A stretch of DNA of 64,000 nucleotides from Emiliania huxleyi CCMP1516 (taxonomy: Eukaryota): assembly GCF_000372725.1 (NCBI RefSeq), contig NW_005201287.1:961081-1025080 (forward strand). Reading direction: 5' to 3'. Position numbers and translations under genes: made by a program. Positions within the stretch are counted from its first letter, which is position 1, and each line of letters begins with the position of its first letter. Below the pieces are notes generated by a model, which was not told the DNA's origin, ran no database searches, and was given only the letters and a program-made list of their open reading frames with translations. This document shows positions 1,759-54,264 of this stretch, in pieces.

Positions 1759-4700
1759 CTAGCTCCCCCGACGCAGCACAGGCGGCTTGGTCACCCAAAG
1801 CTGCCCTGCACTATCCCTATCGACCAGCGGAGTGCTCCCGGCGGCCCACAAGTGGCCCGCGTGCCGGCGGTGCGTGTGGACGCTCTGCCAATGGGACTCG
1901 CGCGCAATACCATGCCAGCGACTGCGCGGCACGACAACCGGCGCCCGGGCAAGTAAGCGCGACGCGCTGCCGGGCGCGTAGCCGCCGCCGCGGGCGGCGG
2001 CATTGGCGGCGGCCCCAAAGAGGACGGTGTTGCGAGAGAGTGCGTCGAGCTCGGCGTCCATCTTGTCGAGCCGCACCTTTGACGTCTGCGCGCGCAGCTT
2101 GCTTCTCGGGGTGCGAGGCTTGAACGTGCGGCGACGCGGCGCCGGCGGCCTCCATTCCGGCAGCGTCCTCTGCTCGCGCATCTCGTCGAGCACGGCGCGC
2201 GCCTCGGCGAGCCTGCCCGCCTGACCGGGTGACAACAACAGAGTCAGAGGACTCCTTCATTCGGTGCGCCTCGGGCGAGCCCGGCCCGCCTCGTAGAGCT
2301 CGCTGATCAGGTCCTGCTCCCGAGTCGCGTTTGGCGCGAGCAGCAAGCCTGACGGGAGAGAGATGAGCGGCCCTCGCCCCACGGCCGCTCGGTCTCGGCT
2401 GCCTCTCGGCTGCCTCTCGCTCTCGCGCCGTGAGCGCGGCCCGCCGCGAGCAGCGAGACGGCGTCCTCCACAGCGCCGCTCAGCGTGAAGCCGAGGACGA
2501 GCTCTTGGCCAAACGTCCTCTGCACCTCGGGCGCGAGCCAGCGGCTCGACGCGCTGAAGATGGCGCGGCCCGCCTCGAGCAGCTGCCTGTTTGCGGGCCG
2601 CCCGCCCGACGGCATCACAGCGCCGACCAAGTACTGCACCGCGCCTGACAGACGCCACCGACACCAGTGACTGGGCAAGGCTCCACCTGCGGGTCAGTCT
2701 GCTGCACCGACGCCGTTCTGCTCGGCCGGGTTGGCCGCCGGCAGCAGCCCCGAGCGGACGCCCCACCGGAAGACCTGAGGGGCGTGTCCCGGGACGGTTC
2801 ATGGACGTGTCCTCGGGGCCGAGTAGAGGAGTCCCGCCGGAACGCCTCGAGGGCGAGCGGCGCGTCCGCGTGCAGCTCGCAGCCGCGCAGCAGCGTCATC
2901 AGCCCGACGATGCACGCGAGGTCGGCGCGGTACGCGCGGGTGAGCTCCGCGTACCTAATTAAAATCTTCATAATCATCACCGATTTAATATTATTTAATC
3001 AGGCGCGGGTGGGCTCCGCGTACCCGGTGCGCAGCAGCCCGGCATTGCGGCAAGCGAGCATCACCTACTCGCAGCCTTCTGCTCCTCGATGGAGAGCTGT
3101 CTGTGGAGGGCCTGTGGCACGCGAGCGTCGCCGTCGCGACGTGCGGCGGGTCGAGCACCTATTAAACAATATCAACACTACTCACCTTTTTAAGATTATT
3201 TAATTAGTCGCGACGTGCGGCGGGTCGAGCACTTTCCCGCCCTCCTCCTCGACCTCGTGCAGCAGCGTCACCGCCAACGTTGCGTCCGCCGCGCGCGCGC
3301 ACGCGACGAGCGCCGCAGACAGCAGCTGCCGGTGCTCGTTGACCTGCGTCGCACTCAGCTTCCCGCTGGCGCCGCGCCGCAGCCGAGGAGCGACGCGCGC
3401 GCGCCGGTAGAGGGCGACGGCGTCGGAGGCGGCGCCGCGGGAGCCGTGCGCGCGGATGGCCTGGTCGACGTCCCACCGTCTGCTAATTAGGAGAGAGTGC
3501 GCCAGGGAGAGTCCCCCCCCCGGAGAGCCCCCCCCCCCCCGTTTCTGCGCCCCGTTCTCCGCCGCCGCCAACCCTCCCGGGGAGAGCTAGCTCGCCTCCG
3601 CCTACTCCTAGCCTCGCCTCCGCCTACTCCTAGCCTCGCCTCCGCCTACTCCTAGCCTCGCCTCCGCCTACTCCTAGCCTCGCCTCCGCCGCAGAAGAGA
3701 CGCCCTCGCCGTACAGACGCTCCTCGAAGAGGCGGGCGCCTACGCGTACGCATCGGGAAGGGTCGTGGAGGGTGGCAGCGGGGGCCCGCTCCTTCCCAAG
3801 AGAGGCGGCGGCCGAGGGACGGCTCGATCCGCACGAGACCCGACTCGGCGCTCGCCATCATCAGCCTAAGGGCGCCGAGTCGCGCGAGTGGCGCGGCGAT
3901 GTGCGCGAGGAGGAGTGCGCCGGAGGGGGAGGGAGGGAGAGCCGGGTGAGGGTCCGGCTGAGGACGCGAAGCCCGCGCTCCGATGCAGACTGCCACAGAG
4001 CGAGCGCCTCGTCGCCTCTGCCGGCGAAGACGAGCGCCTCGAGAAAGAGGCACATCGGCCTACAGGAGAAGTCGAGGGGCAGCTCCGAGCACGGCTCCTG
4101 GAGGCGCGTCTCGCGGAGGCGGCTCCCCGGCCTACACCACCACAACCACCGCGCGGGTGACGGCCTGCCTCCCGCGGCCACTTGCAGGGGCAGTCTCCCT
4201 CGCACCGCTGCTGCAGAGGGATGTGTCTAGGAGGTGTCTAGGAGGTGTCTAGGAGGTGTCTAGGAAGTGTCTAGGAGGTGTCTAGGGAGTGTCTCCCTCG
4301 CACCGCTGCTGCAGAGGGATGTGCAGAGTGCGGCACGAGTGCGAGTAGATCTGCAGCGCGGTGCTGACGTCGCCTAGGGCCAGGGCCGGGGCCGAGGTCG
4401 GGCGTCAGGTGAGGAGAGCTGCGACGAAGTGCTGATGTCGCCGCTGATCGCGCAGACGGAGAGGAGCGGGTTGAGGACCTCCGCCGCAGCATCCGCCTCG
4501 GACAACCCTCCCTCCTCGGCGCCGCCCTCCGTTGCCGGGCGCAACTCAGCCGTGTTACCAGCCTCGTCAATACCCTGCTTGCCGCCGCCCCGCGCGCCGC
4601 CCTCCGCGCCGCCCCCGGGCCGAGGCAGGACGGAGAGGCCGCAGTCCATCCGCAGGTGCTCCACCACCTACAGGAGGAGATACGAGCCTCGCGGCAAGGT

Positions 4701-5486
4701 GCCTCTGCGCACTGCGACCCCCGCCGCTCGACCGCCAAAAAGGCGATGCGCAGCAGCAGCTCCTCGTGCTCGAGCGGCTCGCCGCCGACGACGCCCCACT
4801 CGTCGCTCCCGCTGAGGAAGAGCTCCGCGCTCTCCACCTACCAGCCTCACACCGCCGCCTCGCCCTCCCGGCACGCCGCAGGCGAGGCTGCCGCAGCCGC
4901 TCGCCTCGGCCGCGGCACTCCTCGCCGCCTCGCCTCGCCTCGCCGCCTCCTCGTCGCGCCGCGACGCGTCGGTCGACGAGAAGAGCTCGCGGTACGGGTC
5001 GCTCTCCTCCCACACGTCCGGCGGCGTGGGCGGCAGCCTCAGGTCGAACCGGTAACCCTCGCTCATCTGGCGGAGCAGCGAGGCGGCAAAGCCGGGCGTG
5101 CAGCGCGTCAGGCGGGCGCTGCGGTGCCTGAGGTAGAGCTCGCCGGCGAGGCTGCCCTGGCCGAGCTCACAGCAGTTGCGGAACGCGGTTTGCATCGCCG
5201 TATTCAGGTAGTCGTTTGACTTTTGATTGCGATGAGCCTCCGACGCCAATCCGATGGCGGCGTCCCTCTGCCTGACGGCGTCCTCCATCTCGAGGAAGAG
5301 GCGGCGCACCAGCCGCTCGTTGAGGCGGAGGAGGCCCTCGGCAAGCGGGTCGGGCGGCTCGTCGTCCTCGCGTCCTAGGCTTGGCGCCGGAGGAGGAGGC
5401 CGCAGGGCGACGCTGCAGAGGTTCGCTGCATGCCGGCGCGATCGGCGGCCAGCGTCCCCGGAGGCCACTCGCAGCAGCCGGAGCAT
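1759..5486 (-). CDS. Multi-exon (roughly 14 introns) PPR-like alpha-solenoid protein, probably organelle-targeted
   Basis: The spliced reading gives PPR-like helices: LISELYE|AGRLAEARAVLDEMRE, LLSAALVACARAADATLAVTLLHEVEEEG, VLDPPHVAT|VMLACRNAG, LEALVFAGRGDEALALW. The N-terminus is Arg-rich (MLRLLRVASG). Removing short GC/GT-AG introns restores the frame. Confidence 0.65.
3591..3690. repeat. 22-bp tandem repeat (CCTAGCCTCGCCTCCGCCTACT)n, about 4.5 copies, intronic
   Basis: Visible directly in the sequence. Confidence 0.9.
4226..4290. repeat. 11-bp tandem repeat (GTGTCTAGGAG)x~6 between identical 33-bp direct repeats (4193-4225 and 4291-4323)
   Basis: Visible directly; lies in a predicted GC-AG intron at 4227-4324 (minus). 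Confidence 0.9.
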
Positions 5487-5649: not shown

Positions 5650-6138
5650 TTGCCTGGAACTAGCTTGCCGAACTTGAGCTCTGTTGCTCGCGCCACCGCC
5701 TGCAGACCTTCTGGAATGCGCTTCACCGCCGGCTGCCTGCCACCGCTCCACTCCGCGGTCCGAACGACGGTCCCGAGCATGGCGAGCCCGCTCGACGCCG
5801 TGGCCACGCCGCTCACCAAGTTTCAGGGGAGCGGCGTCTCCAACAGCAACCCGCTTGCCGACGCGCCGTTTGAGGTGCTGGCTCTCTTTGCCGTCATCCT
5901 CCTGGCCGGCGTCGGCGGCCTAGTTCGCGCCTCGGGCGTGCTCTCGTCGGCGGCTCCGACTGTCGGTCTTGGAGAGAGCCGCGAGGAGCTCAAGGAGGAG
6001 GCGCAGCAGGCTGCGACCGAGGAGGCGGAGATGACGCAGGCGGAGAAGGAGGCGATGTACTTCAAAGAGATTCGTAGCGAGCTGGCAGCGAAGCGCGGCG
6101 GCTCGGGAAAGAAGCGAAAAAAGGCGCGCAAGAAGTAG
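5650..6138 (+). CDS. Small single-TM protein with a Lys-rich C-terminus, possibly plastid-targeted; start uncertain
   Basis: Hydrophobic segment FEVLALFAVILLAGVGGLV, then an acidic helix and the tail GKKRKKARKK. Confidence 0.6.
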   Translation: MPGTSLPNLSSVARATACRPSGMRFTAGCLPPLHSAVRTTVPSMASPLDAVATPLTKFQGSGVSNSNPLADAPFEVLALFAVILLAGVGGLVRASGVLSSAAPTVGLGESREELKEEAQQAATEEAEMTQAEKEAMYFKEIRSELAAKRGGSGKKRKKARKK

Positions 6139-6290
6139 CGCAGGAGGGTCCTGTTCTTGAGGTCATGCTTGAGGTTGCACGCGGTGGTCGAAAAATATGT
6201 GCGTCATTAAACATGCACATGTATGTGGGAGGCGCGCGGAACACACGGTACACACGCACACACGCACCTCATCTGTTTAAAAACATCCTC

Positions 6291-8287
6291 TCAGCACGCC
6301 TCTTGCTGTGCTGCGTGCGCGGTCTCGTGCGGCGGCGGCGGCACGACGAGCTGCGGCTCGCCGGGCACCGTGAGTGAGGCGGTGCAGGGCGGCGTGATCG
6401 CCACCAGCGGCGCGGAGTACGGGCTTCCGCCGGGGCCGCCGCTGCTGCGGGGCCCGCTGCTGCGGGGCCCGCTGCTGCGGGGCCCGCTGCCGCACCGGTC
6501 TGTGTTTGCGCGACTGTTGATCACGCGTCCCGCGGACGACCAGTCCATCAGCAAGCAGTAGGTCAGGCCGAAGAGGGCGAGCGGCGCCTGGGCGATGGTC
6601 GTGGCGCCGACGCAGAAGGCCAGCTTGCGAGGCACGGAGGAGGTGGCGAGGTCGGTGAGGGCGAGGGCGCCGACGACGGGCGAGGCGACGGCGTAGAAGC
6701 AGAAGAAGGTTGCTCCGATCGAGAGGAGCGGCTTGCCGAGCGGCACGAAGAGGCACATCGAGCAGATCGAGAGGATGCGGGTCTGCATGTGCGGCAGCAG
6801 CACCCAGAGGATGGCGCCAAAGGCGTCTCGAACCGCCTCGTCGTTGCTGACGGCGTGGGTGACGGCGCCGCTCGCGGCGAGGAGCGCGACGTTGTACGCC
6901 GCCACCAGCACCGACGCGATGCCGATGAGGAGGAAGAAGGCCTTCTTGGCGCCCGGGTCGCGCTTCCCGAGCAGGGTCATCGTGCGGACAGAGACCACCT
7001 GGATCCAGCCCTGCTGCGCGGCGGAGAGGGCCTGCGGACATGGCGTGGACGTGTCATCGACATGTCGTGGACGCGACCCGAGGATCCAGCCGTGCTGTGC
7101 GGCAGGCCTCTAACCCTAACCCTAACCCTAACCCTAGCCCTAGCCCTGCTGCGCGGCGGGCCTGCTCGCACTGCACCCAAATGGCTCCCGCCGCCACTTG
7201 CGCGGTCGAGACGCCCCGCACGTTGGTGAGCGCAACCAGCTGCAGCTCGAAGATGAGCCAGCCCGAAAAGTTCGACGCGATCTGCGGCAGCGTGAGCCGC
7301 GCGAACTCGCACACCTCCCTGCGGCTGAAGAGGGGCGCGTGCTGCTTGCCGCGCGGCAAGAAGAGCGGCAGGAGGCCGAACCACCACGCGAGGCCGCACC
7401 ACACCACGATCCGCGAGGCGCGCACCGTGCTCCACGCGACGGCGGCGCCGAGCACGCCCCACCGCCAGCGGTAGATGAAGGCGTACCTAGGTGAAGGCGT
7501 CAGTGGCCGTTCTTAGTCAGGCGCCGAGCAGGCCCCACCGCCAGCGGCAGAGAGAGGCGCGCGAGCAGAGCACGTCCAGGCCGAGCCCGGTGAGCAGCGA
7601 GTTGAGCGAGGCCTAGGGTTAGGGTTAGGGTTAGGGTTAGGGTCAGGGTTAGCCGAGCCCGGTGAGCAGCGAGTTGAGCGAGGCCGAGCGAGCGTAGCCG
7701 CACGAGACGAAGACGGCTTCGATCTGGATGTCGAGCAGCAGCAGCAGCGCGCCGCCCGCCATGACACGCGTGTACGTCCCCACGGCGGCGGCGATGCTCG
7801 GCTCGACGCCGACGCACCGCAGGACGGGCGCAGAGACAAACTGGAGAGCGCACGAGGGCAGGCAAGAGAGGGCCGCGAGGACGACGGCGCGCCGGAAGTA
7901 GTGCGGTATCCGGTCCCTGCGGCTCGCGCCGATGCACCCGGGCAGCACGTTCCACAGGTAGGCGCTCAGGCCGAGCATCACCATCAGCATCGAAACGTTG
8001 AAGTAGACCCGCCCGTAGCCGAGCGCCGACTGCAGGTGCGCCGAGTCGGGCGTGGAACCCGCAAAGAACATGGTGATGAGAGGCGGTGCGCCCCACTCGA
8101 GGATGGCAGACAGGCAAAGCGGCACGCCCTGGCTGAAGAAGAAGCGCAGCTCGTTGCGAAGGCTGTACGGCGGCTCCTCGGCGCTGCTGCTGGCCGGCTC
8201 GGCCGCGGCGGACTCCTCCGCTTCGGGAAGCATGGTCTCGCGCTGCGTCTCGCGACAGGGGCTGTCGGGCGACAGGAGCTGCGACAT
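6291..8287 (-). CDS. MATE (MatE) family efflux transporter, 3 introns (7613-7684, 7487-7562, 7032-7161)
   Basis: Multiple TM segments; MATE-like motifs LRNELRFFFSQGVP, YAFIYRWRWGVLGAAVA, EFARLTLP...WLIFE, SVRTMTLLGK. The frame is restored by GC-AG introns. Confidence 0.85.
7111..7146. repeat. Interstitial telomeric repeat (CCCTAA/CCCTAG)x6 in a MATE intron
   Basis: taaccctaaccctaaccctaaccctagccctagccc. Confidence 0.95.
7614..7651. repeat. Interstitial telomeric repeat (TTAGGG)x~6 flanked by an identical 34-bp direct repeat (7580-7613, 7652-7685)
   Basis: Visible directly in the sequence. Confidence 0.95.
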
Positions 8288-8964
8288 GATCCGTCTCTGC
8301 CGTCGCGGTCGGACGGTCCTGCTCGGTCGGTCGTGGTCACGGTTCGGGCTCCCTACTCGAGTGAGGCGGGCTCCAACTGTAGGGTGGTCGGACTGTCTAT
8401 TGGGATCGACCCCAGCTATGGGCTCGAGAGTACTGTTGTACGTACTTTTAGCTTACTGGGAGAAAAGAGAGAGGGGGGTTGTGTTCTCTAGGCCCCTAGG
8501 GTTAGGGTTAGCTCTCTCTGTTGTAGGCCAGGTTGAGGAGATTACACGATCCCGGCGTGAGCAGGACTAACTGAGGGATCCGCTCCTGACAGTGGCATGC
8601 ACTGCGCTGCGGCGCGTGCCACTGTCTTTGTTTGAAGTTAAAAGTCGAATCAGAGCGCCGTCGGCCGTCGGCGCTGTCCCTCGTTTTCCTCCCACGGACC
8701 GCCCGTCCGGCACCGCTCGCTCCGGGACGCACGCCGGCGAAGCACCATCAAGCTGCTGTACGGCCCCGGCATCGCCTCCCCTGGCTTAGCTAGACTGAGA
8801 GACCATTGTGCACATGGTTGGTCTCTACAATATATACACTGACACTAAACCTCCCAGAGCTCGTCCCGGTCCGTCACGGCCATCCTCGGCCTCCGGAGGG
8901 CCCCCGACCGCGGCGCGGTGTGGCGGCGTCACAAATCCGACCACAGAGCACCACGAAACCACGA

Positions 8965-9463
8965 CTAAGGTGCCCACAGGGTCCAAAAAAGAAAGGAAAA
9001 AAGAAATGGGGCAAGCCCCATCGCAGCACTTCGTGTTGGAGAGTCGAGATATTGAGATTGTGACTAGGAGGAAGGGACGCTGGCGATTCTCAAAGGTATA
9101 CCCTTGGAATGGCCGGATCCAGCCTTGAAAGTACGAGATCGCGCGCGCTTCGCGCGCTGCACCGCCTGTTCTCCGCGGCTGAGTGACGACGCGTGCCGTG
9201 TGCCAGCAGAGTTGGGCGCGCGCGGCGCCGTCGGCGCCGGTGAGGGAAGGCGCGGGTGCAGCGGCCGCCGGCGGTCGTACCGCTCGCCGGCCAGGCAGCG
9301 CAGCAGCGGCCAGCGCAGCGGCCGCTGGCGCAGCAGCCAGAGCAGCCGGTGCGCGCCTTGCGAGGCGAGTACTGCCGCCCGGCAGCCTTGAGGCGGCCAG
9401 GCGGCAGTACTCGTTCGAATGTTGCGAGCCGTGCGCGCGCCGAGGCGCGCGCGGCGCGCGCCC
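8965..9463 (+). mobile_element. Dispersed ~500-bp repeat family A, copy 1 (probable non-autonomous element)
   Basis: Near-identical, same orientation, to 53000-53499 (e.g. ggggcaagccccatcgcagcacttcgtgt...aaaggtatacccttggaatggccggatccagccttgaaagtacgag). Confidence 0.75.
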
Positions 9464-9632
9464 TGGCCCATAACACCGCCCGGGCACAGACTCCCTACCC
9501 GTCGGATCACACAGGGGCCCCTCAGAGCAGCCCACACGATCACACACTCACACACACACATCACTGTGAGAGTCGTGATTTCTTGAGCATTTTCAAAAAT
9601 CTCTCTCTCACACAGGTGCGTGCTTCTCTCTC

Positions 9633-23066: not shown

Positions 23067-25111
23067 TCACGCCGCCACAGTCTCCGGCGCCGGCACGCTC
23101 AGCGACCCCAACGACTGCGCCGCGCCGTCCGTGGCGGCCTGTTCCTCGTCGCTTCCGGCGGCGGCGGCGGCGACAGCCTCGATGCGGCACGCCCCCTCGG
23201 CGGTCACGTCGACGCTCACGACGAGCCCCGACTCGCCTGGCGCGTTGTCGCACGCGTGCAGCGCGAGCGCCGCCACGGCCCGGGGCGGCTGCGGCGGCCC
23301 GTCGGGGGGAGAAACGGCGTCGGCGGGCGGCGGCGGCGGCATCTCGACGAGGCGAAGCACGAGCCTCTGCCCGGCGGCCGGCGGCTCGACCTGCAGCGGA
23401 ATCTTCCGGTGCAGCGGCACGCAGCTTCCAGCACAAACGAGGGGGAGGAAGGCGCCGCCGCCGAGCTCGAGGGCGAGAGTGCGCGGCAACCTCCGCCGCG
23501 CACTCGCTGCACCGGAGCGTTGCCAGCCGCCCGCGGAAGTGTCGCCCGCCGCCATGAGCGAGCCTACGGGCGAATAGCATGACGAGAGTCGCGGACCTGC
23601 CTCTGCGGCGGCGGCGGCCTCTCGTCGGGTGAACCGTACAGCGCCGCGCCGCTGGCCGCAGCCTCGTCGGACGTGGCGCCAAAGTGGAGTGTGGCGCCTA
23701 CATGACAACATGTCAGGGCCGTGTCATGGACATGTCTACGAGATGGCGCCAAAGTGGAGGGTGGCGCCGGGGAGCTCAGCGGCGAGGGCGGCCTGCACAC
23801 AAGGCATGCGGCAGCCGCCGCCCGAGAGCAGCACCTCGCGCACGCACCGCGCGCCCTCGAGAGCTGACGCCTCGCCGGGCGAGCAAGCGTCGGCGGCGCG
23901 CAGCGCCGCGCGGGCGACGGAGCGCACCGCCGCACAGAGGGGGCGGGCGAGGTCCTCGAGGCTCGCCCGCGAGACGGTGACAAAGTGGTCCGCCCCCTCC
24001 GCCTCGACGGCGATCTGCGCCTGCGGGACACCCCTCAAGAGTACGCCCTCGCGTGGACATGTCACGGACGCGCCCGTGGTCTCCCTCTCCTCCGGCGGCA
24101 CGTCTGCGCCTGAGTCCCGCCAGAGAGGCTCCGCTTGCACGCCTCTGCCGCCGCGCCCAGCCGCGCCTTCGCGCGCGCGTTGCCGGACAGGTCGACGCGC
24201 GAGCGGCGGCGGATGTCCTTGAGCGCCAGCGCCACCAGCGCGGCGTCCACCTGCGCAGCGCCGCGCGTCTCGTCCGACGCCGTCGAGGCAATGCTGAGCC
24301 GGGCGACTGCGCGCCGCAGCCGCGTGCTTCGCGGCCCCGCCGCAGCCTCCCCGCCGCAGTCAGCCCCCCCCTCGCCGCCCCCCTCCCCCTCCGCCTCCCC
24401 CTCCGCCTGCCCCTCGGGCTCCTCTCCAAGGTCCACCACCGAAGCAGACACGCAGCAGCCGCCCACGTCCACCACCAGCAGCCTGCGAGGTGCGGCGCCT
24501 CCGCCGCCCGCCGCATCGGCGCCCGCCCCGTCGCCGCCGGCCGCCGCCGCCTCGATCTCGGCCACGCGCAGCAGGGCGACAGCGAGCGGCGAGGGCAGCG
24601 CCAGCTTGACCCGCATGCCGCCGCCCCGCGCCGCCTCGAGCAGCGCGTCGGCGCGCGAGGGAGCGAGGTGCGCCGGCGTGGCGAGGACAACCTCGCGCAC
24701 CGGCGCGCCGCAAAACGAGTCCGCCGCGCCGCGCAGCCCACCCACAACCAATGAGAGCAGCCGCACCGCCGTGTGCGTCTTGCCACCCGGCACCGCCACC
24801 GAGACTGCGCCGTCCTTCTCGGCGGCAGACGTGAGGAAGCCCCAGCGAGAGCGCGCGGCCTGCACGACCGGGTCGTCGAAGTCGCGGCCGAGCATCAGCA
24901 GCAAGTCGCTCATCGTCAGCTTTGGGTTGCGTGCTGCCTGTGCGGCCGCCGCCTCCCCGAGCAGCGTTTCGCCGTCGGCGAAGGCCACGGTCGTCGGCGT
25001 CGAGCGCGAGCCCTGCTCGTTGGCGATGAGCTGCACCGTGCCGTGCCGCATCACCGCCATCGTGCAGCACGTGTTGCCCACATCCAGCCCCAGCACGCCT
25101 GCCGCGCTCAT
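23067..25111 (-). CDS. Atypical Hsp70-family protein (HSPA14/Ssz1-like), introns 24021-24109 and 23698-23767
   Basis: Motifs VLGLDVGNT, IANEQGSRSTPTTVAF, VVLATPAH, VVDVGG, AEACKRSLS, VLLSGGGCRMP, DEAAASGAALY; catalytic motifs are degenerate. Confidence 0.8.
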
Positions 25112-26880: not shown

Positions 26881-27896
26881 ATGCAGGCTGCGAACAAAGA
26901 GCGATGCCATGTCGGGCCGCTCCGTCTTCCGCTCGAGTGCTCTGTTGGGCCCGGGGCGAGAACGAGCTTAATTGGCATACAGTCGATAGAGAGATAGATG
27001 GAAAGTCGACTTCACGAGGTCTGTAGTGGAATTTGCGAAAATTATTTTGTTGTCTGTGTTAGCGCCAGTGACCCCCACTCCCTTTTCTCCCAGTAAGCTA
27101 AAAGCCTAAAAGTACGTACGTACATATTCGTGCCGTCACATTGGTGGGTATCGGCTATATCGCTCGGGGCGCGGGACCGCGGGACGAAGTTCTTCGACGC
27201 GCTCCGGATCATCCGCCTCATCCGCCTCGAGAAGAGATCGCGTAGAGGATACCCGTAGAGGTCGCGGATCCTCATCTCTTCCCTCCCCGATTCGCTGTCC
27301 GCATTTGCATGCAGTGCGCGGCAAGAGTGGCTTGAGGGGCTGCTCTCCCCCGCGGCTCACAATCTCTCGCAAGCTACTCGACATGGGGAACCGCATGTGC
27401 GGGTTGGGGCACGAGGGCAATGAGGATAGCATGCGCCAGCCAGGCGCCGCCTCATCCTCAAAGCACTGATGCGTCATGAGACGTCGCCGCACCGTCACGG
27501 CACGGCCCACCAAGAAGGTGGCGCCATGAATCTCTTCGCCGCCGGAAGTTTCGCCGCCGGGAAGTGCACTATATGACCAGACCACCCTCATGCCCGCCTC
27601 ACACATCGCCTCCGCCTCCGCCCTTGTCGATGCCGGTCGCGCCCCCTCTAGTCGTCCCTGTCGGACATTGCAGCTGATTGCGGACGTGCGGGGGCTGTCA
27701 CGGCCGTCTGACCAGAGACGGCACACTGCCGAAACACGCGAGCCTCCCAAAGGAAGCTGCCATCAGGCGGGTTGTCGAGCATGTGCATGTACAGCAGGAC
27801 GATTCGGTCCCGGTCGTGCCACCAGTAGCTGTGCGGCCACGCCAGAGGCGCGAGCTCCGCAGCTGTCGGCCTCCGAGGTCTCGCCCCCTGAGCCCT

Positions 27897-28135
27897 GGTG
27901 TCGAGGTGTCGAGGCCCGGTGTCGAGGGTGTCGAGCTGCTGTCGAGGGATAGAGGTGTCGAGGCCTGTCGAGGCCTGTCGAGGCCTGTCGAGGCCTGTCG
28001 AGGCTGGGACCAAGCTTGTCCGTGTCGAGGGGTGTCGAGGGGTGTCGAGGGTGTCGAGGGTGTCGAGGGTGTCGAGGGTGTCGAGCAGGTGTCGAGTGTT
28101 GTCAAGGGGTTTTGCGTCTAAGGTGTCGAGGTGTC
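27897..28135. repeat. 9-11 bp satellite of GTGTCGAGG-type units
   Basis: (tgtcgaggcc)n and (gtgtcgagg)n arrays. Confidence 0.9.
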
Positions 28136-28529
28136 CAAGGTGGCAGGATGCAGTTGCAGCCCATCAACAAAACTTGGGCAGCAGTTGCAAAGCTGTTTCA
28201 TCCCTTAGTTGCAGCCTCAGTTGCACCCTGTTGATGTAGCACAACCTGAGCACAACCAGTATACTCTCTGTGGACATTTGAGGACATCAAGTGCCGGGAG
28301 TCATTGCCACTGTGCACAAAGGTGCTGTGCAGGCGCAGCACCGCAGCAGCGTCGCCGCTGCAGCAGCGTCGCCCCTGCAGCGTCACCGGCGCACATAGCG
28401 CAACTGACCACAGCGCTCATGGCACAAGGCTGGTGCCATGAGTCAGTGGACATTGCCACTGCACAAGGTGCTGTCCAGCAGCTAAGGGCTGCCAGTACCC
28501 CATCGCAGCAGCGTCGCCGCCGCTGCAGC
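28022..28529 (+). mobile_element. Dispersed ~510-bp repeat family B, copy 1
   Basis: Reverse complement of 48712-49229 (ggatgcagttgcagcccatcaacaaaacttggg...gctaagggct...gtaccccatcgcagcagcgtcgcc). Confidence 0.75.
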
Positions 28530-31059: not shown

Positions 31060-33381
31060 CTACGCGCCTGCCGCATCCGTCGCAGACGTGATCCTCTTCG
31101 GCGTGATCCTCTCCGTCGCCTCTTCGATGGCGGTGGCGATGTCCGGGTAGGCGGCGCCGCCGTGCTTGCTGTTGTCGAGGCCGGCGTCCTCGACTTCTTT
31201 CGAGATGCGGAGCAAGCCTCCCGCCATGAGGCCCGAGAAGAGGATCGCACTCAGCGCGCCGACCCAGAGGGTGATGAAGACCGTGCCTGCGGGGCAGGGG
31301 CGAGCGTCGGAAGGGAAAGAGAAGAGGGCGCACTTTGACGCGGGAGCGGACCGACGATCTGCGTGGCGAGCAAGAGGCCATCGCCGCCGTAAAAGACGCC
31401 GCACGCCGTGCCAGACTCCGTGTAGGAGTAGTCGCACGTGCAAAAGAAGCCGACGGCGAGGCAGCCCCACAGACCGCACGCGCCGTGGACAGCGAAGGCG
31501 TCGAGCGGGTCGTCGATCTTGAGCCTGCGCATCAAGCACGAGGCGCCGTGGTAGAAGAATGCTCCGATGAAGCCGATGACGACCGACGCCCAGATCTCGA
31601 CGGTCGTGCAGCCGGCGGTGATCGAGACGAGCCCTCCCAGCAGCGAGTTGCAGGTGTGGCCGAGGTCCCACACGCCGGGCGACCCTCCGCAGGAGCCGGG
31701 CGCGAAGCGCTTGAGGAGGATCCCCGTGGTGGCGGCCTAGGGTTAGGGTTAGGGTTAGGGTTAGGGTTAGGGTTAGGGTCAGGGTTAGGAGGATCCCCGT
31801 GGTGGCGGCCTAGGGTTAGGGTTAGGGTTAGGGTTAGGGTTAGGGTTAGGGTTAGGAGGATCCCCGTGGTGGCGGCCTATTAGGGTTAGGGTTAGGGTTA
31901 GGGTTAGGGTTAGGGTTAGGGTTAGGGTTAGGGTTAGGGTTAGGGTTAGGGTTAGGGTTAGGGTTAGGGTTAGGGTTAGGGTCAGGGTATGGGTTAGGGT
32001 TAGGGTTAGGAGGATCCCCGTGGTGGCGGCCGTGGCGGCGGAGAGCGTCGTCGTGACGGCGGCGCGGGCCGCGTCGCGCGCGTAGTTGTGGAGCGCGAGG
32101 GTTGAGCCCGGGTTGAAGCCGTACCAGCCGAACCAGAGCAAAAAGGTGCCCAGCACTTGCAGGGACGCCGACTGGCCGGCGAAGGCGTCTGCGGGGGCGA
32201 CGCGTGCGCGTGAGGGAGGAGGCGGGGCAGCCGCACCGAAGCAGGCGGGTGCGCACGTTCGGGCAGCTCTCCGAATCGGCCCTTGCGAGGTCGGATGATG
32301 AAGGCACCGGTGAAGGCGCAGATGCCTCCCGTCATGTGCACGACGCCGGAGCCCGCAAAGTCGACCATGCCTGCGGACGGGGCGGGGCGGGGCGGGTGAG
32401 GGGAGGGGGCGGTGGCATTGTCTGCTGGAGGGGGGGGGGAGAGGGGCACCAGTGAGCATCGCGTCCTTGTTAAAGGCGGAGAGGAAGCCGTGTTCGTCCC
32501 ACACCCTGCGGCCAGAGAAAAAGGGGTGACCGCTGTTCAGACGTCTGCCACCCCTCCCGGGGTCTGCTCCCCCTCCCCGGGGCTAGCCCCTGGGCTGGGA
32601 GCGTAGTACGCCCGTCGCTGCAGATGCGGAGCGAGGCGAAGGCTGGCAATGGACGCTCCCCGGGGCAGCTGCGCGCGCCAGTGCACCACCGTCGGGTATA
32701 CGAAGCCGACGATGGCGAAGACGTACGCGCAGTAGCCAACCAGCGTGCACCGCTCCGCCACAGCGCCGGACGTGATGGTCGCTGCCGCCGCCGCAAAACA
32801 GTACTGGAAGAAGAAGAAGACGGCGTCGTGCCCGTAGTCCTTTTTGCCGGTCGTGTCGTCGGCTCCGGAGAGGGCAAAGTTGTGGCCGCTGCCGCCGATG
32901 AAGGCGTTCCCGTCCTCGCTCTTGTCATAGGCAAAGCCGAACCCAATGAGGTACCTAACAGCAGCGGGCTGGGCTGAGCGCGCCCGCGAAGGCCCCGCTG
33001 ACACCGCTCCGGCCCTCGGACACCAGACCAGCCCGCCGAAGCACGCGTCCATGACGGACTTGAGAAGGATGTTCTTGACGCTGCGCATGCGTACCGATCC
33101 CGCCGAGAGCAGCGCGAAGCCCGCCTGCATGAGAAAAACTAGAGCCGCGCAAAAGAGCAGATAGAAGGTGTTCGTCTCGCTCTGCGACCGGGTGCACGAG
33201 GCGTGAGTGGGCGCAAAGGGCGGCGCGGCGCGCCAGCTGTCGCCGCCGGGCGGACCTCGTCAGCTTCGAAGCGGACCTCGTCAGCTTCGAGCTGTCCGCG
33301 CAGCGCCGTGGCGCAGGCCGTCAGCGAAGACACGTTGGCCGTGACCTCTGGACCGAAGTTGCAGGCCGAGAGAGGAGTCAT
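31060..33381 (-). CDS. AMT1: Ammonium transporter (AMT1 family), multi-exon
   Basis: Motifs [96 protein letters not shown]. Confidence 0.95.
31714..32031. repeat. Four identical 24-bp exon-derived repeats (AGGAGGATCCCCGTGGTGGCGGCC) separated by three TTAGGG arrays
   Basis: Copies start at 31714, 31787, 31854 and 32008; the spacers are telomeric hexamers. Forms AMT intron 31737-32030. Confidence 0.95.
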
Positions 33382-34919: not shown

Positions 34920-35300
34920 CCGGGGGGGGGGGTTATTTCCTATGGCTATAGGGGACGCGGCTGGGAGTAGGTGACCCAGAGCCCCGGGGCAGAGAAATTG
35001 GCGACTGGGGCCCGGGGTTTGCCACCCTAACCCGGGAAGTTTTGGGGGTGTTTCAGGGGGGGGGAGCCGGTCTTTAGATTTTTTTTTTCCCCTTGGGAAA
35101 AGGAAAACAGGGTATTTTTAAACCTCAGAATCGGGGGGGGCCGGGTCGCTTTTAAGGGGGGGGCCTTTGAACCCGGGCAAACGGGTTACGTGTTTGTGGG
35201 GGTCCCCAAAAAGGGGAGGTCCCAGGGTTTTTGGGAAAACAGGGGGGCTTTTTCTGGGGTTTTTGCCCTTAAGGCCCCCCCCCCCCCCCCCCCCCCTCCT
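34920..35300. other. Homopolymer-rich segment, probably low-quality sequence or an assembly junction
   Basis: Dense G/T/C/A runs with no coherent frame, typical of read-end base calls. Confidence 0.55.
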
Positions 35301-47833: not shown

Positions 47834-48711
47834 ACACACACATGTGTATTCCGGCGAAAGAAGAATTCGCGCGGTTGAGGGAGAAACTCCCCCCCGGCAA
47901 ATGATCGCAGTGGGCGTCAGAAGAGTCGTCCTTGCGCGAGGAGAGCTCGATAAACTCGAGTTGCCAAAATATGCCGCGAGGAGTTGGTTCTTGCACTTGT
48001 GCAAGATTGGGCGTCTTCTGCAGCAGTCCCTTTGTTTGATGGGAGGCCCCAGGGTGGGGGCCACCTTGAACCCCTGGCCAGGGATTCGAGCGGAGGGTGC
48101 CCCGGATTCATCTATCCGTAGGGCCCCGGTACATTCATTAGAACTGATCACTTTGCGCAGCAGCCGTCCCTTCGCCACTGGACGGCAGTGCGCTGCGCTG
48201 TCGCTCTGTCGAGCACGCTCTCGTGCTTCGTTGTGACGCGGGAGTAAAGTTGAGAAGCAGCCCTCGACGAGACGACCGGCGCCGCGATGCCGGACCTCAC
48301 CGCCGCCGAGCTCAGCATTCCGGCCGAGCAGAACCCCGATCCCGCAAAATCACTGGTAATTCCTGTCGACTCAACAGTGGTATCCTCTACCCGGCGCTGC
48401 ATTCCGTGGTCGGTGGTGAACAATCCGGCCTTCCTCAATCTGCCGCCCCTCCTCCTCCAGGGATGCAAGCGTCGTGGGTCCAGATTCCGCAGTGGGCCGC
48501 CATCAGTGGCCTTCTCCCGTTTTGTGAGCCCGATCCCGCTGTGGCCAGCTACTTTGATAGACTCAGCGTCCTGCGGCTGTCCATCTTGGCCGCGGCGTGG
48601 CGCCGCATCCTCGGTGCCTTGTCCGACCTTGGCGTATTCGCCACAGTGCACGTGGATGAGGACGCCTGGTCTCCATTGCGCTTTGTGCACTGGCGACGCT
48701 GCAACGGCGAC

Positions 48712-49229
48712 GCTGCAGCGGCGGCGACGCTGCTGCGATGGGGTACTGTAGCCCTTAGCTGCTGGACAGCACCTTGTGCAGTGGCAATGTCCACTGACTC
48801 ATGGCACCAGCCTTGTGAAAGGAGCGCCGCTGTGGTCAGTTGCGCTTTGTGCGCCGGTGGCGCTGCAGGGGCGACGACACTGCAGCGGCGACGCTGCTGC
48901 GGTGCTGCGCCTGCACAGCACCTTTGAGCTTTGTGCACAGTGGCAATGACTCCCGGCACTTGATGTCCTCAAATGTCCACAGAGAGTATACTGGTTGTGC
49001 TCAGGTTGTGCTACATCAACAGGGTGCAACTGGAGAGGCTGCAACTAAGGGATGAAACAGCTTTGCAACTGCTGCCCAAGTTTTGTTGATGGGCTGCAAC
49101 TGCATCCTGCCACCTTGGACACCTCGACACCTCAGAGATGCCTCTTGACAACACTCGACACCCGCTCGACACCCTCGACACCCTCAACACCCTCGACACT
49201 CCTCGACACCCCTCGACACCCCTCGACAC
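48712..49229 (-). mobile_element. Dispersed repeat family B, copy 2 (inverted relative to 28022-28529), ending in CCTCGACAC satellite
   Basis: Reverse-complement match read directly. Confidence 0.75.
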
Positions 49230-50405
49230 TAAAAGCACTGAACAGTGCGCAGTGGATCACCATGTCGGTCGCGCCCTGCGAAAGGACAACCGTGGGCCGC
49301 GGATGCTTGCTCGGACGCGGCCCCGCCGCGCGAGTTGCAGGCCCGGAGGAGACCGACCCAGCTCATCCCCAGAGAGGCCATGCCAAGGGGTCAGCCCTTG
49401 ATGTGGGTGGCTCTTTGGCCAAAACTTTTACGCATCATCTGGCCTACACTGTCTGACATGGCACATGGGGAAGACGCTGAAGGGGAGGAGGATGGCCCTT
49501 GCCGCGGCTGTGGCGGCGACGGAGCGGATCCCCAGGCTCGGGAGGGGGCAGACGCGGCCCCACTGCCGAGCCACATCCTCTGCCGGCCCAGTACCAATGG
49601 GGCGAGGTACCGACCAAGATAGCGCACAGGATGGCCGCCGCCATCCCCCCCGGCATTGCTGGGTGCGGCCGCATGTGCGCGATTGCGGGGCCGCAGCGCT
49701 GGCGACTCCGCGGGCTTTTTTCTCTTCTCTGACGCGACCAACGCTTCTGGGTACGAGAGCCAGGACGCGCTCGCCCTCGCCGCGTCGGGCGCGGCATCGC
49801 AGTCGCTTTCGCCCGGCATCGGTTCGTGCTGCGTTTTCGACAGACGACAGACGGAGTGCCGCAGAGCAGCGAGCACACAGGCACACAGGGAGCCGACCGT
49901 GAGCGGCTCGTTCGGCTCGTCGGCTCGGCGGCGGCGACGTGGACGCGAGTTTGAACAGATGTTTTTCTTTTCTGAAGATGACAAGGCGGATTTGAATCAT
50001 GTAGTCCCCACAATCGCTGACGTGGGATCGCTTGTCATGTGAGAGAGTGCGTTGTGTTCTTGTTTCGTATCCCTTTCTCTTCCGTAGATGTATGTATGTA
50101 GGAAGGTGAAGAACAGCCAGGCTCGGACTGGACACCAACGCGGTATGGGTGGACGCGAGACAGATGATGACGACACACGCACGAACGACACACAGACAGA
50201 CACAAACAAGCTCACAAGACACACAGCCAGCTGGCTGCCACACACCCTGAGTTGGCGTACACATAACTCAAGGCCACATCCTCCCTGTCGCCCCCCCCAG
50301 CACTCCAAGGTGCCAAGAGAACAAACGTAGAGAAGAAAACGGGAAAAAAAAGCTCCAGAAAGAAACAGATCGGAATCACCGTGCTCCGGGCTCCGGCGCG
50401 CTCAC

Positions 50406-52808: not shown

Positions 52809-52999
52809 GAGTGTCGAGAGAGATTTTTAGCAAGTTTGTTTTGTACGACTCGTGACGGCGGCACGCGAGTCGAGAGTGAGTGGGACAACCGCGAGGTGGC
52901 ATGAAGGTCGCTGCGAGAGTGGGCGAGAAACTGCCGCGCGCGCCGTGCATCGTCCATCGACCGGCGTGCGTGCCCGCCAGCCACAGGCAGGGCCACAGG

Positions 53000-53499
53000 C
53001 TAGGGTGCCCACAGGGCCCAAAAAAGAACGAAGGAAAAAAGGCATGGGGCAAGCCCCATCGCAGCACTTCGTGTCGGAGAGTCGAGATATTGTGATTGTG
53101 ACTAGGAGGGAGGGACGCTGGGGATTCTCAAAGGTATACCCTTGGAATGGCCGGATCCAGCCTTGAAAGTACGAGATCGCGCGCGCTTCGCGCGCTGCAC
53201 CGCCTGTTCTCCGGCGCGGCTGAGTGACGACGCGTGCCGTGTGCCAGCAGAGTTGGGCGCGCGCGGCGCGACGGCGCCGGCGAGGGAAGGCGCGGGTGCA
53301 GCGGCCGCCGGCGGTCGTACCGCTCGCCGGCCAGCGCAGCAGCGGCCAGCGCAGCGGCCGCCGGCGCAGCAGCCAGAGCAGCCGGTGCGCGCCTTGCGAG
53401 GCGAGTACTGCCGCCCGGCAGCCTTGAGGCGGCCGGGCGGCAGTACTCGCTCGAGCTTTGCGAGCCGTGCGCGCGCCGAGGCGCGCGCGGCGCGCGCCC
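53000..53499 (+). mobile_element. Dispersed repeat family A, copy 2
   Basis: Near-identical to 8965-9463. Confidence 0.75.
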
Positions 53500-54264
53500 G
53501 CCCGGCTGCCAGTAGGAGGCGGCGCAATATGGCCTATAGTACAGCCCTTGAGGAGGAGGAAGAGGCTGGCTGGCAGTGCTGTATGCCGCCGAGGGGCAGT
53601 TTTGGGGTGCTGTCCCCATCCCAGGGGGCTGCTAGCAGAACGCGTCCGCAGCCGGGACAACCCGCCCCCCCAGCCGAGGCCGGTCGAAGCCCACTTGGGC
53701 ACAGCCATGAGGAGTCCTCTTGGTGCTCCTGGCGGCCGTTCAAAGGTCGGGCGCGCGCCGATGGGGGGGGGGGGGGTCTTGCTTGCTCCACACCGAGCGC
53801 CATCGGTCCGGACCGGTGCGCCCAATGAGGGTAGGCCTGCACAAGGTCTGAGCCGCGGGCGCTCGGCGCCAAGTGCAGTGTCACGCTCGCACGCGAAGGG
53901 GACACTGGGAAACCCTCGTTTCCTAGTCACTCGGTCCCCCAACGGAAGAGGCCTCGCTCCTATTGGAACACTCCAACATCAGATTTGCCTCGTGCGTCCC
54001 TTTTTGAGGCGGAAAGCTATTTTCTTTTGAATCCTGTGTGTGGGCATCCTACACAGGCACATACAGACAGCATTAATCAATCTCAACTTATGATAGCGCT
54101 AAAATTATCTCAATCTCGAAGCCATGCGAACGAAAGAAAGAAGGAAATTTCATGTCCCTGTCCCACTCCTTCCCTCCCCTCGTATCACATGCAATAACAT
54201 ACCAAAACATGCAAGTTCAAAAGGAAAACGCGTGACACGCAGCCCTGTGCCCCCAGCAGCAGCG

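What the first reader, a model, noticed from the sequence alone, without database searches (positions are those of the whole stretch)
2934..3232. Two neighbouring introns share a related AT-rich ~48-nt filler, suggesting a templated insert family
Seen: in very GC-rich DNA, two AT-rich islands read on the minus strand TGATTAAATAATATTAAATCGGTGATGATTATGAAGATTTTAATTAG and TAATTAAATAATCTTAAAAAGGTGAGTAGTGTTGATATTGTTTAATAG. They share T(G/A)ATTAAATAAT.TTAAA..GGTGA and end in AAT(T)AG. They sit between different exon-derived duplications: 21-22 bp with 1 mismatch, and 26 bp identical. Inference: the fillers come from a common template (a tiny introner-like element or RNA) inserted at independent sites.
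Basis: partly seen in the sequence, partly recalled or inferred. Interest (0 to 1): 0.78.

Follow-up and report, generated by a model that had tools for sequence, protein, structure and literature searches.

The report
New introns from long exon duplications
In a marine alga, two short spliced introns each consist of a 21-26-base copy of the next exon plus a related AT-rich insert, one of them is missing cleanly in another copy of the gene, and many neighbouring introns look like older versions of the same design, so this likely shows an ongoing way of making introns that would also help explain this group's unusual GC splice signals.

Summary
Both islands are the 3' parts of short GT-AG introns: B (2955-3023, 69 nt) and A (3159-3232, 74 nt). 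RNA contigs from 4 of 4 studies skip B exactly and skip A together with the next intron. Each intron is a copy of the next exon's first 21 or 26 bases (giving the GT) plus a 48-nt filler (giving the AG). The fillers are 35/49 identical, above all 20,000 shuffles. An orthologous contig lacks exactly intron A and keeps one 26-mer. The claimed family is not shown: no third copy in the window, the metagenome scan or viral collections, and single-copy depth in a genome-sized run. The larger result is that the design is general here: 5 of 12 other introns of the gene start with a decayed copy of the next exon (19/200,000 permutations), and introns in other genes pair 23-43-bp copies with telomere-repeat or other fillers. 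Best reading: a host repair route for widely staggered breaks, filled from various templates, makes introns. A tiny long-duplication transposon is the main rival.

The parts
3159..3232 (-). Intron A, 74 nt, GT-AG; has an empty allele
   Evidence: RNA joint 3065-3207 in 4 of 4 runs = A + 27-nt exon + 67-nt intron; absent in L004
3207..3232 (-). Intronic copy of the next exon's first 26 nt; supplies the GT donor
   Evidence: 26/26 identical to 3133-3158
3159..3206 (-). AT-rich filler A, 48 nt, 21% GC; supplies the AG acceptor
3132..3158 (-). 27-nt exon holding the exonic 26-mer
   Evidence: inferred from the RNA joint and the open frame
3065..3131 (-). 67-nt GC-AG intron whose first 19 nt match the next exon 15/19; older intron of the same design
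3024..3064 (-). 41-nt exon between the 67-nt intron and intron B
2955..3023 (-). Intron B, 69 nt, GT-AG; present in L004 and in the 3 of 3 non-RNA runs laid
   Evidence: RNA skip of 69 nt in 4 of 4 runs
3003..3023 (-). Intronic copy of the next exon's first 21 nt (one T-to-C change); supplies the GT donor
   Evidence: RNA keeps the downstream copy's letter at 2943; 20/21
2955..3002 (-). AT-rich filler B, 48 nt, 21% GC, begins CT and ends AG
2934..2954 (-). Exonic copy of the 21-mer
2221..2289 (-). 69-nt GC-AG intron starting with a 21/24 copy of the next exon
   Evidence: RNA joint
2645..2713 (-). 69-nt GC-AG intron starting with an 11/12 copy of the next exon; the L004 allele lacks the one extra base and is closer to the exon
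2775..2845 (-). 71-nt GC-AG intron with a decayed copy of the next exon (11/18 ungapped)
3740..3812 (-). 73-nt GC-AG intron with a 19/26 copy of the next exon
4374..4441 (-). 68-nt GC-AG intron with a decayed copy of the next exon (15/20)
   Evidence: RNA joint in X11
1760..5486 (-). Host gene, 14 introns, about 800 codons, function unknown
   Evidence: only a 99% identical relative found
7613..7684 (-). Inferred intron in another gene: 33/33 exon copy + telomere-repeat filler ending TAG
   Evidence: not checked with RNA
7487..7562 (-). Inferred intron: 38/44 exon copy + 33-nt unrelated filler
   Evidence: not checked with RNA
23698..23767 (-). Inferred intron: about 24-nt exon copy (19/20 at the start) + unrelated filler
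   Evidence: not checked with RNA
31737..32030 (-). Three tandem units of a 23-nt exon copy + telomere-repeat filler in an ammonium-transporter-like gene
   Evidence: not checked with RNA; gene name from recalled motifs

Best explanation
Introns A and B are young spliceosomal introns, each built from a copy of the next exon's first 21-26 bases plus a related 48-nt AT-rich insert, and they likely arose when a widely staggered DNA break in the exon was repaired with a templated filler. Shown: both are spliced out, the copy supplies the GT donor, the filler supplies the AG, the mRNA is unchanged, the fillers are related, and an allele without A exists. Inferred: (1) two nicks about 20-45 nt apart leave long overhangs whose fill-in duplicates the exon segment; (2) a filler is copied in from whatever template is at hand: an unidentified AT-rich template for A and B, telomere repeats at other sites, other repeats elsewhere; (3) only products that start with GT or GC, end in AG and reach about 66-77 nt are spliced cleanly and survive; (4) the intronic copy then decays, leaving the ordinary-looking GC-AG introns nearby. 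On this reading the donor dinucleotide is simply taken from 66%-GC exon sequence, which would contribute to the GC-donor majority reported for Emiliania huxleyi.
For: RNA skips in 4 of 4 studies. Filler homology, 0/20,000 shuffles. Exact empty site for A in a contig that keeps the neighbouring introns; in run X1 the contigs fork at 3158 and the A-bearing branch has depth 26.9 against 52.1, with an unlisted remainder the size of an empty-allele piece. Same design with other fillers: 33/33 and 23/23 copies with telomere repeats, 38/44 and about 24-nt copies with unrelated fillers. 5 of 12 other RNA-defined introns of the gene score above all 132 mismatched intron-exon pairs, permutation 19/200,000. 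14 of 14 downstream exons of this gene begin with GT or GC against 0.21 background. Telomere repeats inserted at breaks with target duplications are documented in mammals (PMC2246262, passages), and staggered-break intron gain with AT-rich inserts in Daphnia (PMC4202315, passages).
Against: No break, enzyme or template was observed; the template of A and B was not found. Related fillers of the same length (48 nt) with CT..AG ends are what a small transposon would give. The empty allele could also come from collapse between the 26-bp repeats, so it does not fix polarity by itself. Generality rests on one window: of the 4 introns added last only 1 was clearly positive; 10 of 15 frame-inferred introns in other genes show no copy, and the 5 positives lie in genes picked because repeats had been seen there. 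The unbiased window scan gave only 1.5-fold enrichment of AG before the second copy. An AG|G preference at splice sites is general (recalled) and explains part of the GY result.
Confidence: 0.5

Rival explanations
1. The 48-nt filler is a tiny non-autonomous transposon (introner) that carries the 3' splice site, takes the donor from an unusually long 21-26-bp target duplication, and has a small, diverged family.
For: Same filler length, 71% identity, CT..AG ends with weak inverted repeats (575 and 789 of 20,000 shuffles), independent sites, an empty allele. The 'co-opt 5', carry 3'' class is described (10.1101/2022.06.06.494994, passages). An E. huxleyi family of 5 GT-AG introns of about 68-70 nt in this class, noted '10bp terminal direct repeats', is listed in a supplement (PMC12130899 sd07). 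Under a post hoc AT-to-GC decay model the four nearest older introns resemble the fillers slightly (p 0.003 for a chosen set of 4; 0.025 for all 12 of the gene; 0.34 for 15 elsewhere).
Against: No third copy. Single-copy depth over both fillers in X1 (51.8 and 52.7) while simple-repeat fillers reach 11,385-148,639. A is young yet only 71% like B. The hairpin is no more stable than shuffles (z -0.3). The long duplication also goes with unrelated fillers. The introner duplications I saw in print are 2-8 bp.
Confidence: 0.3
2. Filler A was copied locally from intron B (about 150 nt away) by an error-prone repair polymerase or through the gene's own RNA, so the pair is a local accident rather than a family.
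For: The only two known copies lie in one gene, in the same orientation; no copy elsewhere was found.
Against: 14 of 49 columns differ although A's flanking copies are still 26/26 identical; B alleles differ by only 2 single-base indels between the window and L004, so a recent copy should be near-identical.
Confidence: 0.12
3. Intron A is older and the empty allele is a precise loss (collapse between the 26-bp repeats or reverse-transcribed mRNA), so the polymorphism is not a gain in progress.
For: Direct repeats of 26 bp allow an exact deletion; the window, X6 and one X1 branch carry A.
Against: The 26/26 identity and 21% GC mark A as young next to decayed neighbours; L004 keeps introns 27 nt and 135 nt away. 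Even under loss the duplication must have come from an earlier insertion.
Confidence: 0.06
4. The filler likeness is chance or convergence on splice signals in AT-rich sequence.
For: Both are 21% GC and end in TAG; the pair was picked from very many windows.
Against: 0 of 20,000 shuffles, also without the last 8 nt; the best-conserved part is the 5' half, far from the acceptor.
Confidence: 0.02

Closest known systems
Introners of the 'co-opt 5', carry 3'' class (Symbiodinium example; Gozashti et al., 10.1101/2022.06.06.494994 passages; PMC12130899 section 6, passages and supplement sd07 rows)
   Same: Insertion carries the AG, the donor comes from the target duplication, the mRNA is unchanged, short length, aquatic protist host.
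   Different: Duplications there are 2-8 bp in what I read; here 21-26 bp (up to about 43 nearby). Only 2 copies, 71% alike; inverted repeats weak; the same duplication goes with unrelated fillers.
E. huxleyi CCMP1516 introner family fam24/fam11 (PMC12130899 sd07, rows 1026 and 1028)
   Same: About 68-70 nt, 5 of 5 GT-AG, co-opt 5' carry 3', unclassified, with a note of terminal direct repeats.
   Different: Called with a 2-bp duplication and 10-bp repeats; its sequence was not in the rows I saw, so identity with this filler is untested.
Intron gain by repair of staggered double-strand breaks in Daphnia pulex (PMC4202315, passages; reviewed in PMC3443670, passages)
   Same: Polymorphic, AT-rich new introns with a direct repeat of the adjacent exon end; repeats fade with age.
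   Different: Exon-intron repeats there are 4-12 bp (33 cases); here 21-43 bp, they form a third of the intron and supply the donor, and two fillers are related.
Tandem genomic duplication of an AGGT-containing exon segment (PMC3443670, passages)
   Same: Exon duplication creates a splice site without changing the coding sequence.
   Different: There both sites come from the duplicated AGGT; here the upstream exons end in AAA and CGG and the AG comes from foreign filler.
Interstitial telomeric repeats inserted at breaks (PMC2246262, passages)
   Same: Telomere repeats added at a break, sometimes with a target duplication, as in the inferred introns at 7613-7684 and 31737-32030.
   Different: Duplication was a minority outcome there (6 of 130 rodent and 4 of 25 primate loci) and the passages read do not describe intron creation.

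Membership tests
Introner (intron-generating transposon) | Element is removed as a spliceosomal intron | tested here: met
   RNA contigs, 4 of 4 studies
Introner (intron-generating transposon) | Several similar introns at unrelated positions | tested here: inconclusive
   2 copies at 71% in one gene; none further; no whole genome was held
Introner (intron-generating transposon) | Site-specific target duplication of short, family-typical length | tested here: not met
   Site-specific, but 21 and 26 bp and unequal; 2-8 bp in the examples read
Introner (intron-generating transposon) | Terminal inverted repeats (many families) | tested here: inconclusive
   575 and 789 of 20,000 shuffles reach the end score; fold z -0.34 and -0.27
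Introner (intron-generating transposon) | Empty-site allele | tested here: met
   A absent in L004; B never seen absent
Introner (intron-generating transposon) | Autonomous partner or homology to a known element | not testable with these tools
   No eukaryotic genome or repeat library on hand
Staggered-break repair intron gain (Daphnia type) | Direct repeat of the adjacent exon end at the far end of the new intron | tested here: met
   26/26 and 20/21
Staggered-break repair intron gain (Daphnia type) | AT-rich insert, polymorphic | tested here: met
   21% GC; empty allele
Staggered-break repair intron gain (Daphnia type) | Repeat length 4-12 bp | tested here: not met
   21-26 bp here against 4-12 bp
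Staggered-break repair intron gain (Daphnia type) | Dependence on end-joining repair | not testable with these tools
   Needs experiment
Tandem genomic duplication (AGGT model) | Both splice sites from the duplicated exon segment, no foreign DNA | tested here: not met
   AG lies in a 48-nt foreign filler; upstream exons end AAA and CGG
E. huxleyi introner fam24 (PMC12130899) | Sequence identity with the family consensus | not testable with these tools
   The supplement rows give coordinates and classes only; files 13 and 14 were not searched

The most novel reading that the evidence does not exclude
Coccolithophore-type haptophytes make a large share of their introns by one host pathway: a cut staggered by 20-45 nt duplicates the exon, a reverse transcriptase or repair polymerase fills the gap from telomerase RNA or another small template (the AT-rich 48-mer being an unknown one), and the result is a ready-made intron of about 70 nt. 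The process is still running, leaves a complete age series inside single genes, and is the cause of the GC-donor majority in these algae.
Probability: 0.3. Interest if true: 0.9.

Novelty: new variant of a known kind. Interest (0 to 1): 0.72.

Why it matters
Where new spliceosomal introns come from is a long-open question, and most gained introns show no trace of their source. Here one gene holds a polymorphic intron with a perfect 26-bp footprint, a slightly older one, and several decayed ones, in an abundant alga with many public genomes and ocean metagenomes. A simple genome-wide count can test whether one long-duplication pathway built much of its intron set. It also offers a mechanism for the 56-65% GC donors reported for E. 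huxleyi, which that paper put down to high GC content alone (PMC4028052, passages): the donor is borrowed from exon sequence.

Tried and rejected
No whole genome was held, so no genome-wide count was possible. Searches for a source of the filler found none: strict consensus in viral contigs 0 hits; a looser motif gave 11 loci with 12 matches, none continuing (3-13 of 30 further letters); phage blastn best E 0.02 for B and 0.9 for A, read as chance for AT-rich queries; Rfam 0 matches at E up to 5; metagenome scan 5 hits, 4 without the design. Organelle genomes and eukaryotic repeat libraries were not available. A single 141-nt intron across A was rejected because its ends would be TA..TA. The internal GTGAG in filler A looks like a donor, but no RNA contig joint uses it (contigs drop rare forms). 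A stable hairpin in the fillers was not supported. The AT-to-GC direction test on aligned copies was dropped: alignments ran into noise and counts were 30 against 29. The 'older neighbours are decayed members of the same filler family' idea is post hoc and weak: 5 of 27 introns at p under 0.05, and group p values of 0.003, 0.025 and 0.34. The host protein has no assigned family: one exon scanned against Pfam gave nothing at cut-off, one relative only. Earlier notes of this scan held nothing relevant. The 2009 Daphnia paper could not be read (timed out). Literature searches listed no paper describing long exon duplications at haptophyte intron starts; this covers open-licence text only, I opened few of the listed papers, and bioRxiv supplements were closed.

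Full report
Setting. The window is 66% GC eukaryotic DNA. The closest named relatives of a neighbouring transporter exon are haptophyte proteins (Prymnesium, 74-75%), and the RNA and DNA runs that hold the stretch are marine or from cultures. The GC content, GC-AG introns and TTAGGG repeats fit Emiliania/Gephyrocapsa as described in PMC4028052 and 10.1101/2024.05.26.595999 (passages); the species is my inference. No whole genome was held.

Observation. On the minus strand, element A is a 26-nt segment, 48 nt of 21%-GC filler ending AG, and the same 26 nt again. Element B is 21 nt, 48 nt of filler, and 21 nt with one difference. The fillers align at 35 of 49 columns, 21 of the first 25. None of 20,000 dinucleotide shuffles reaches the score, with or without the last 8 nt. 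The shared motif occurs twice in 64 kb even at 3 mismatches.

They are introns. RNA contigs of 4 of 4 runs, from 4 studies, skip 69 nt at B with GT..AG ends and keep the downstream copy's letter. They skip 141 nt across A; this has canonical ends only if read as A (74 nt, GT-AG), a 27-nt exon and a 67-nt GC-AG intron. With all 14 introns removed the frame is open for about 800 codons. So the first copy gives the donor, the filler gives the acceptor, and the protein is unchanged.

Intron A is polymorphic. The metagenome scan returned one orthologous contig, L004. It keeps B and the neighbouring introns but lacks exactly the 74 nt of A, leaving one 26-mer. Among three non-RNA runs laid, X6 has a contig across both introns. 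X1 forks at 3158 with an A-bearing branch at depth 26.9 against 52.1 upstream, and the bin holds an unlisted remainder of about 1,450 letter-depths, the size of an empty-allele piece; the contig after the fork is only 32.4 deep, which I cannot explain. An X8 contig leaves the window at 3132 with 52 letters unlisted. The joint rows for these were among 13 not shown, so heterozygosity in X1 and absence in X8 are inferred. B was present in all. Collapse between the repeats could also give an empty allele, so polarity rests on A's perfect copy and low GC.

No family was found. The consensus found no further copy with this design in metagenome contigs (1 of 5 hits is this locus), none in viral contigs, phages or Rfam. 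In X1 the bins over the fillers have single-copy depth (51.8, 52.7), whereas bins over simple-repeat intron fillers reach 11,385 to 148,639. That excludes many near-identical copies but not a few diverged ones. Inverted repeats are marginal.

The design is wider than the finding. Of the 12 other RNA-defined introns of the gene, 5 start with a copy of their next exon that scores above all 132 mismatched pairs; the permutation test gives 19 of 200,000. I noticed this by eye first; among the 4 introns added afterwards 1 was clearly positive. In L004 the intron at 2645-2713 lacks one extra base and matches its exon better. All 14 downstream exons begin GT or GC, background 0.21. Among 15 introns inferred from reading frames in 5 other genes, 5 carry clear copies and 10 do not (not RNA-checked, and the positive genes were chosen after repeats were seen). 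Their copies are 23-43 nt and their fillers are telomere repeats or unrelated sequence, with single units mostly 67-76 nt long. An unbiased window scan showed only 1.5-fold enrichment. Whether the older neighbours are GC-shifted relatives of the AT-rich filler is weakly suggested and post hoc.

Mechanism. Because the long duplication comes with several unrelated fillers, I place it on the host side: a break staggered by 20-45 nt, filled in, with a templated insert, and filtered by selection for a GT or GC start, an AG end and a spliceable length (0.5). The cutting enzyme, the polymerase and the template of A and B are inferred, not shown. A tiny transposon with a long target duplication remains the main rival (0.3), then a local copy of B (0.12), loss rather than gain (0.06) and chance (0.02).

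Comparison. It works like a 'co-opt 5', carry 3'' introner and like Daphnia break-repair gains, but the repeats are 21-43 bp against 2-8 and 4-12 bp, and family membership is not met or inconclusive on copy number, duplication length and inverted repeats. A supplement lists an unclassified 5-copy E. huxleyi family of similar length and class with a note of 10-bp direct repeats; I could not see its sequence, so part of this may already be catalogued without being recognised. Telomere-repeat insertion at breaks with duplications is known in mammals. Eight literature searches listed no description of long exon copies at haptophyte intron starts (open-licence text only).

Verdict. Real, spliced, one intron polymorphic; shared template supported, family unproven; most valuable as the young end of an age series that suggests a general intron-making route. 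New variant of a known kind, interest 0.72.

Noticed in passing
window 7032-7161 (-): Inferred 130-nt intron made of two stacked units, each starting with a decayed copy of the next exon; one filler is telomere repeat in the opposite orientation. Suggests repeated insertion at one site.
   Followed up: partly
window 31737-32030 (-): Three tandem units of a 23-nt exon copy plus telomere repeats, each ending TAG; either three introns with no exon between, recursive splicing, or later slippage.
   Followed up: partly
window 4060-4303 (-): 244-nt intron with an internal acceptor-like site at 4132 and a minor RNA joint 4055-4128 in X11; it also holds a copy of the upstream exon end and a very high-copy simple repeat (depth 148,639 in X1).
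   Followed up: partly
window 4374-4441 (-): The 3' part reads like decayed telomere repeats ending CCCTAG, by eye only.
   Followed up: no
window 3481-3490: A palindromic 8-mer equal to the ends of the fillers lies inside the 223-nt intron; possibly a remnant.
   Followed up: no
window 5904-5930 and 6192-6260: Clusters of differences shared by the laid runs against the window: strain variant or assembly error.
   Followed up: no
window about 8950-9480 and 52990-53500: A dispersed repeat of about 500 nt in two copies, seen by eye.
   Followed up: no
window about 27890-28520 and 48700-49230: Two inverted copies of a repeat element with short GTGTCGAG-type arrays, seen by eye.
   Followed up: no
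window about 34920-35300: Homopolymer-rich stretch that looks like low-quality read sequence.
   Followed up: no
L015:101-288: Two copies of an AT-rich motif 169 nt apart before similar gene starts in a viral contig; unrelated to this finding.
   Followed up: no
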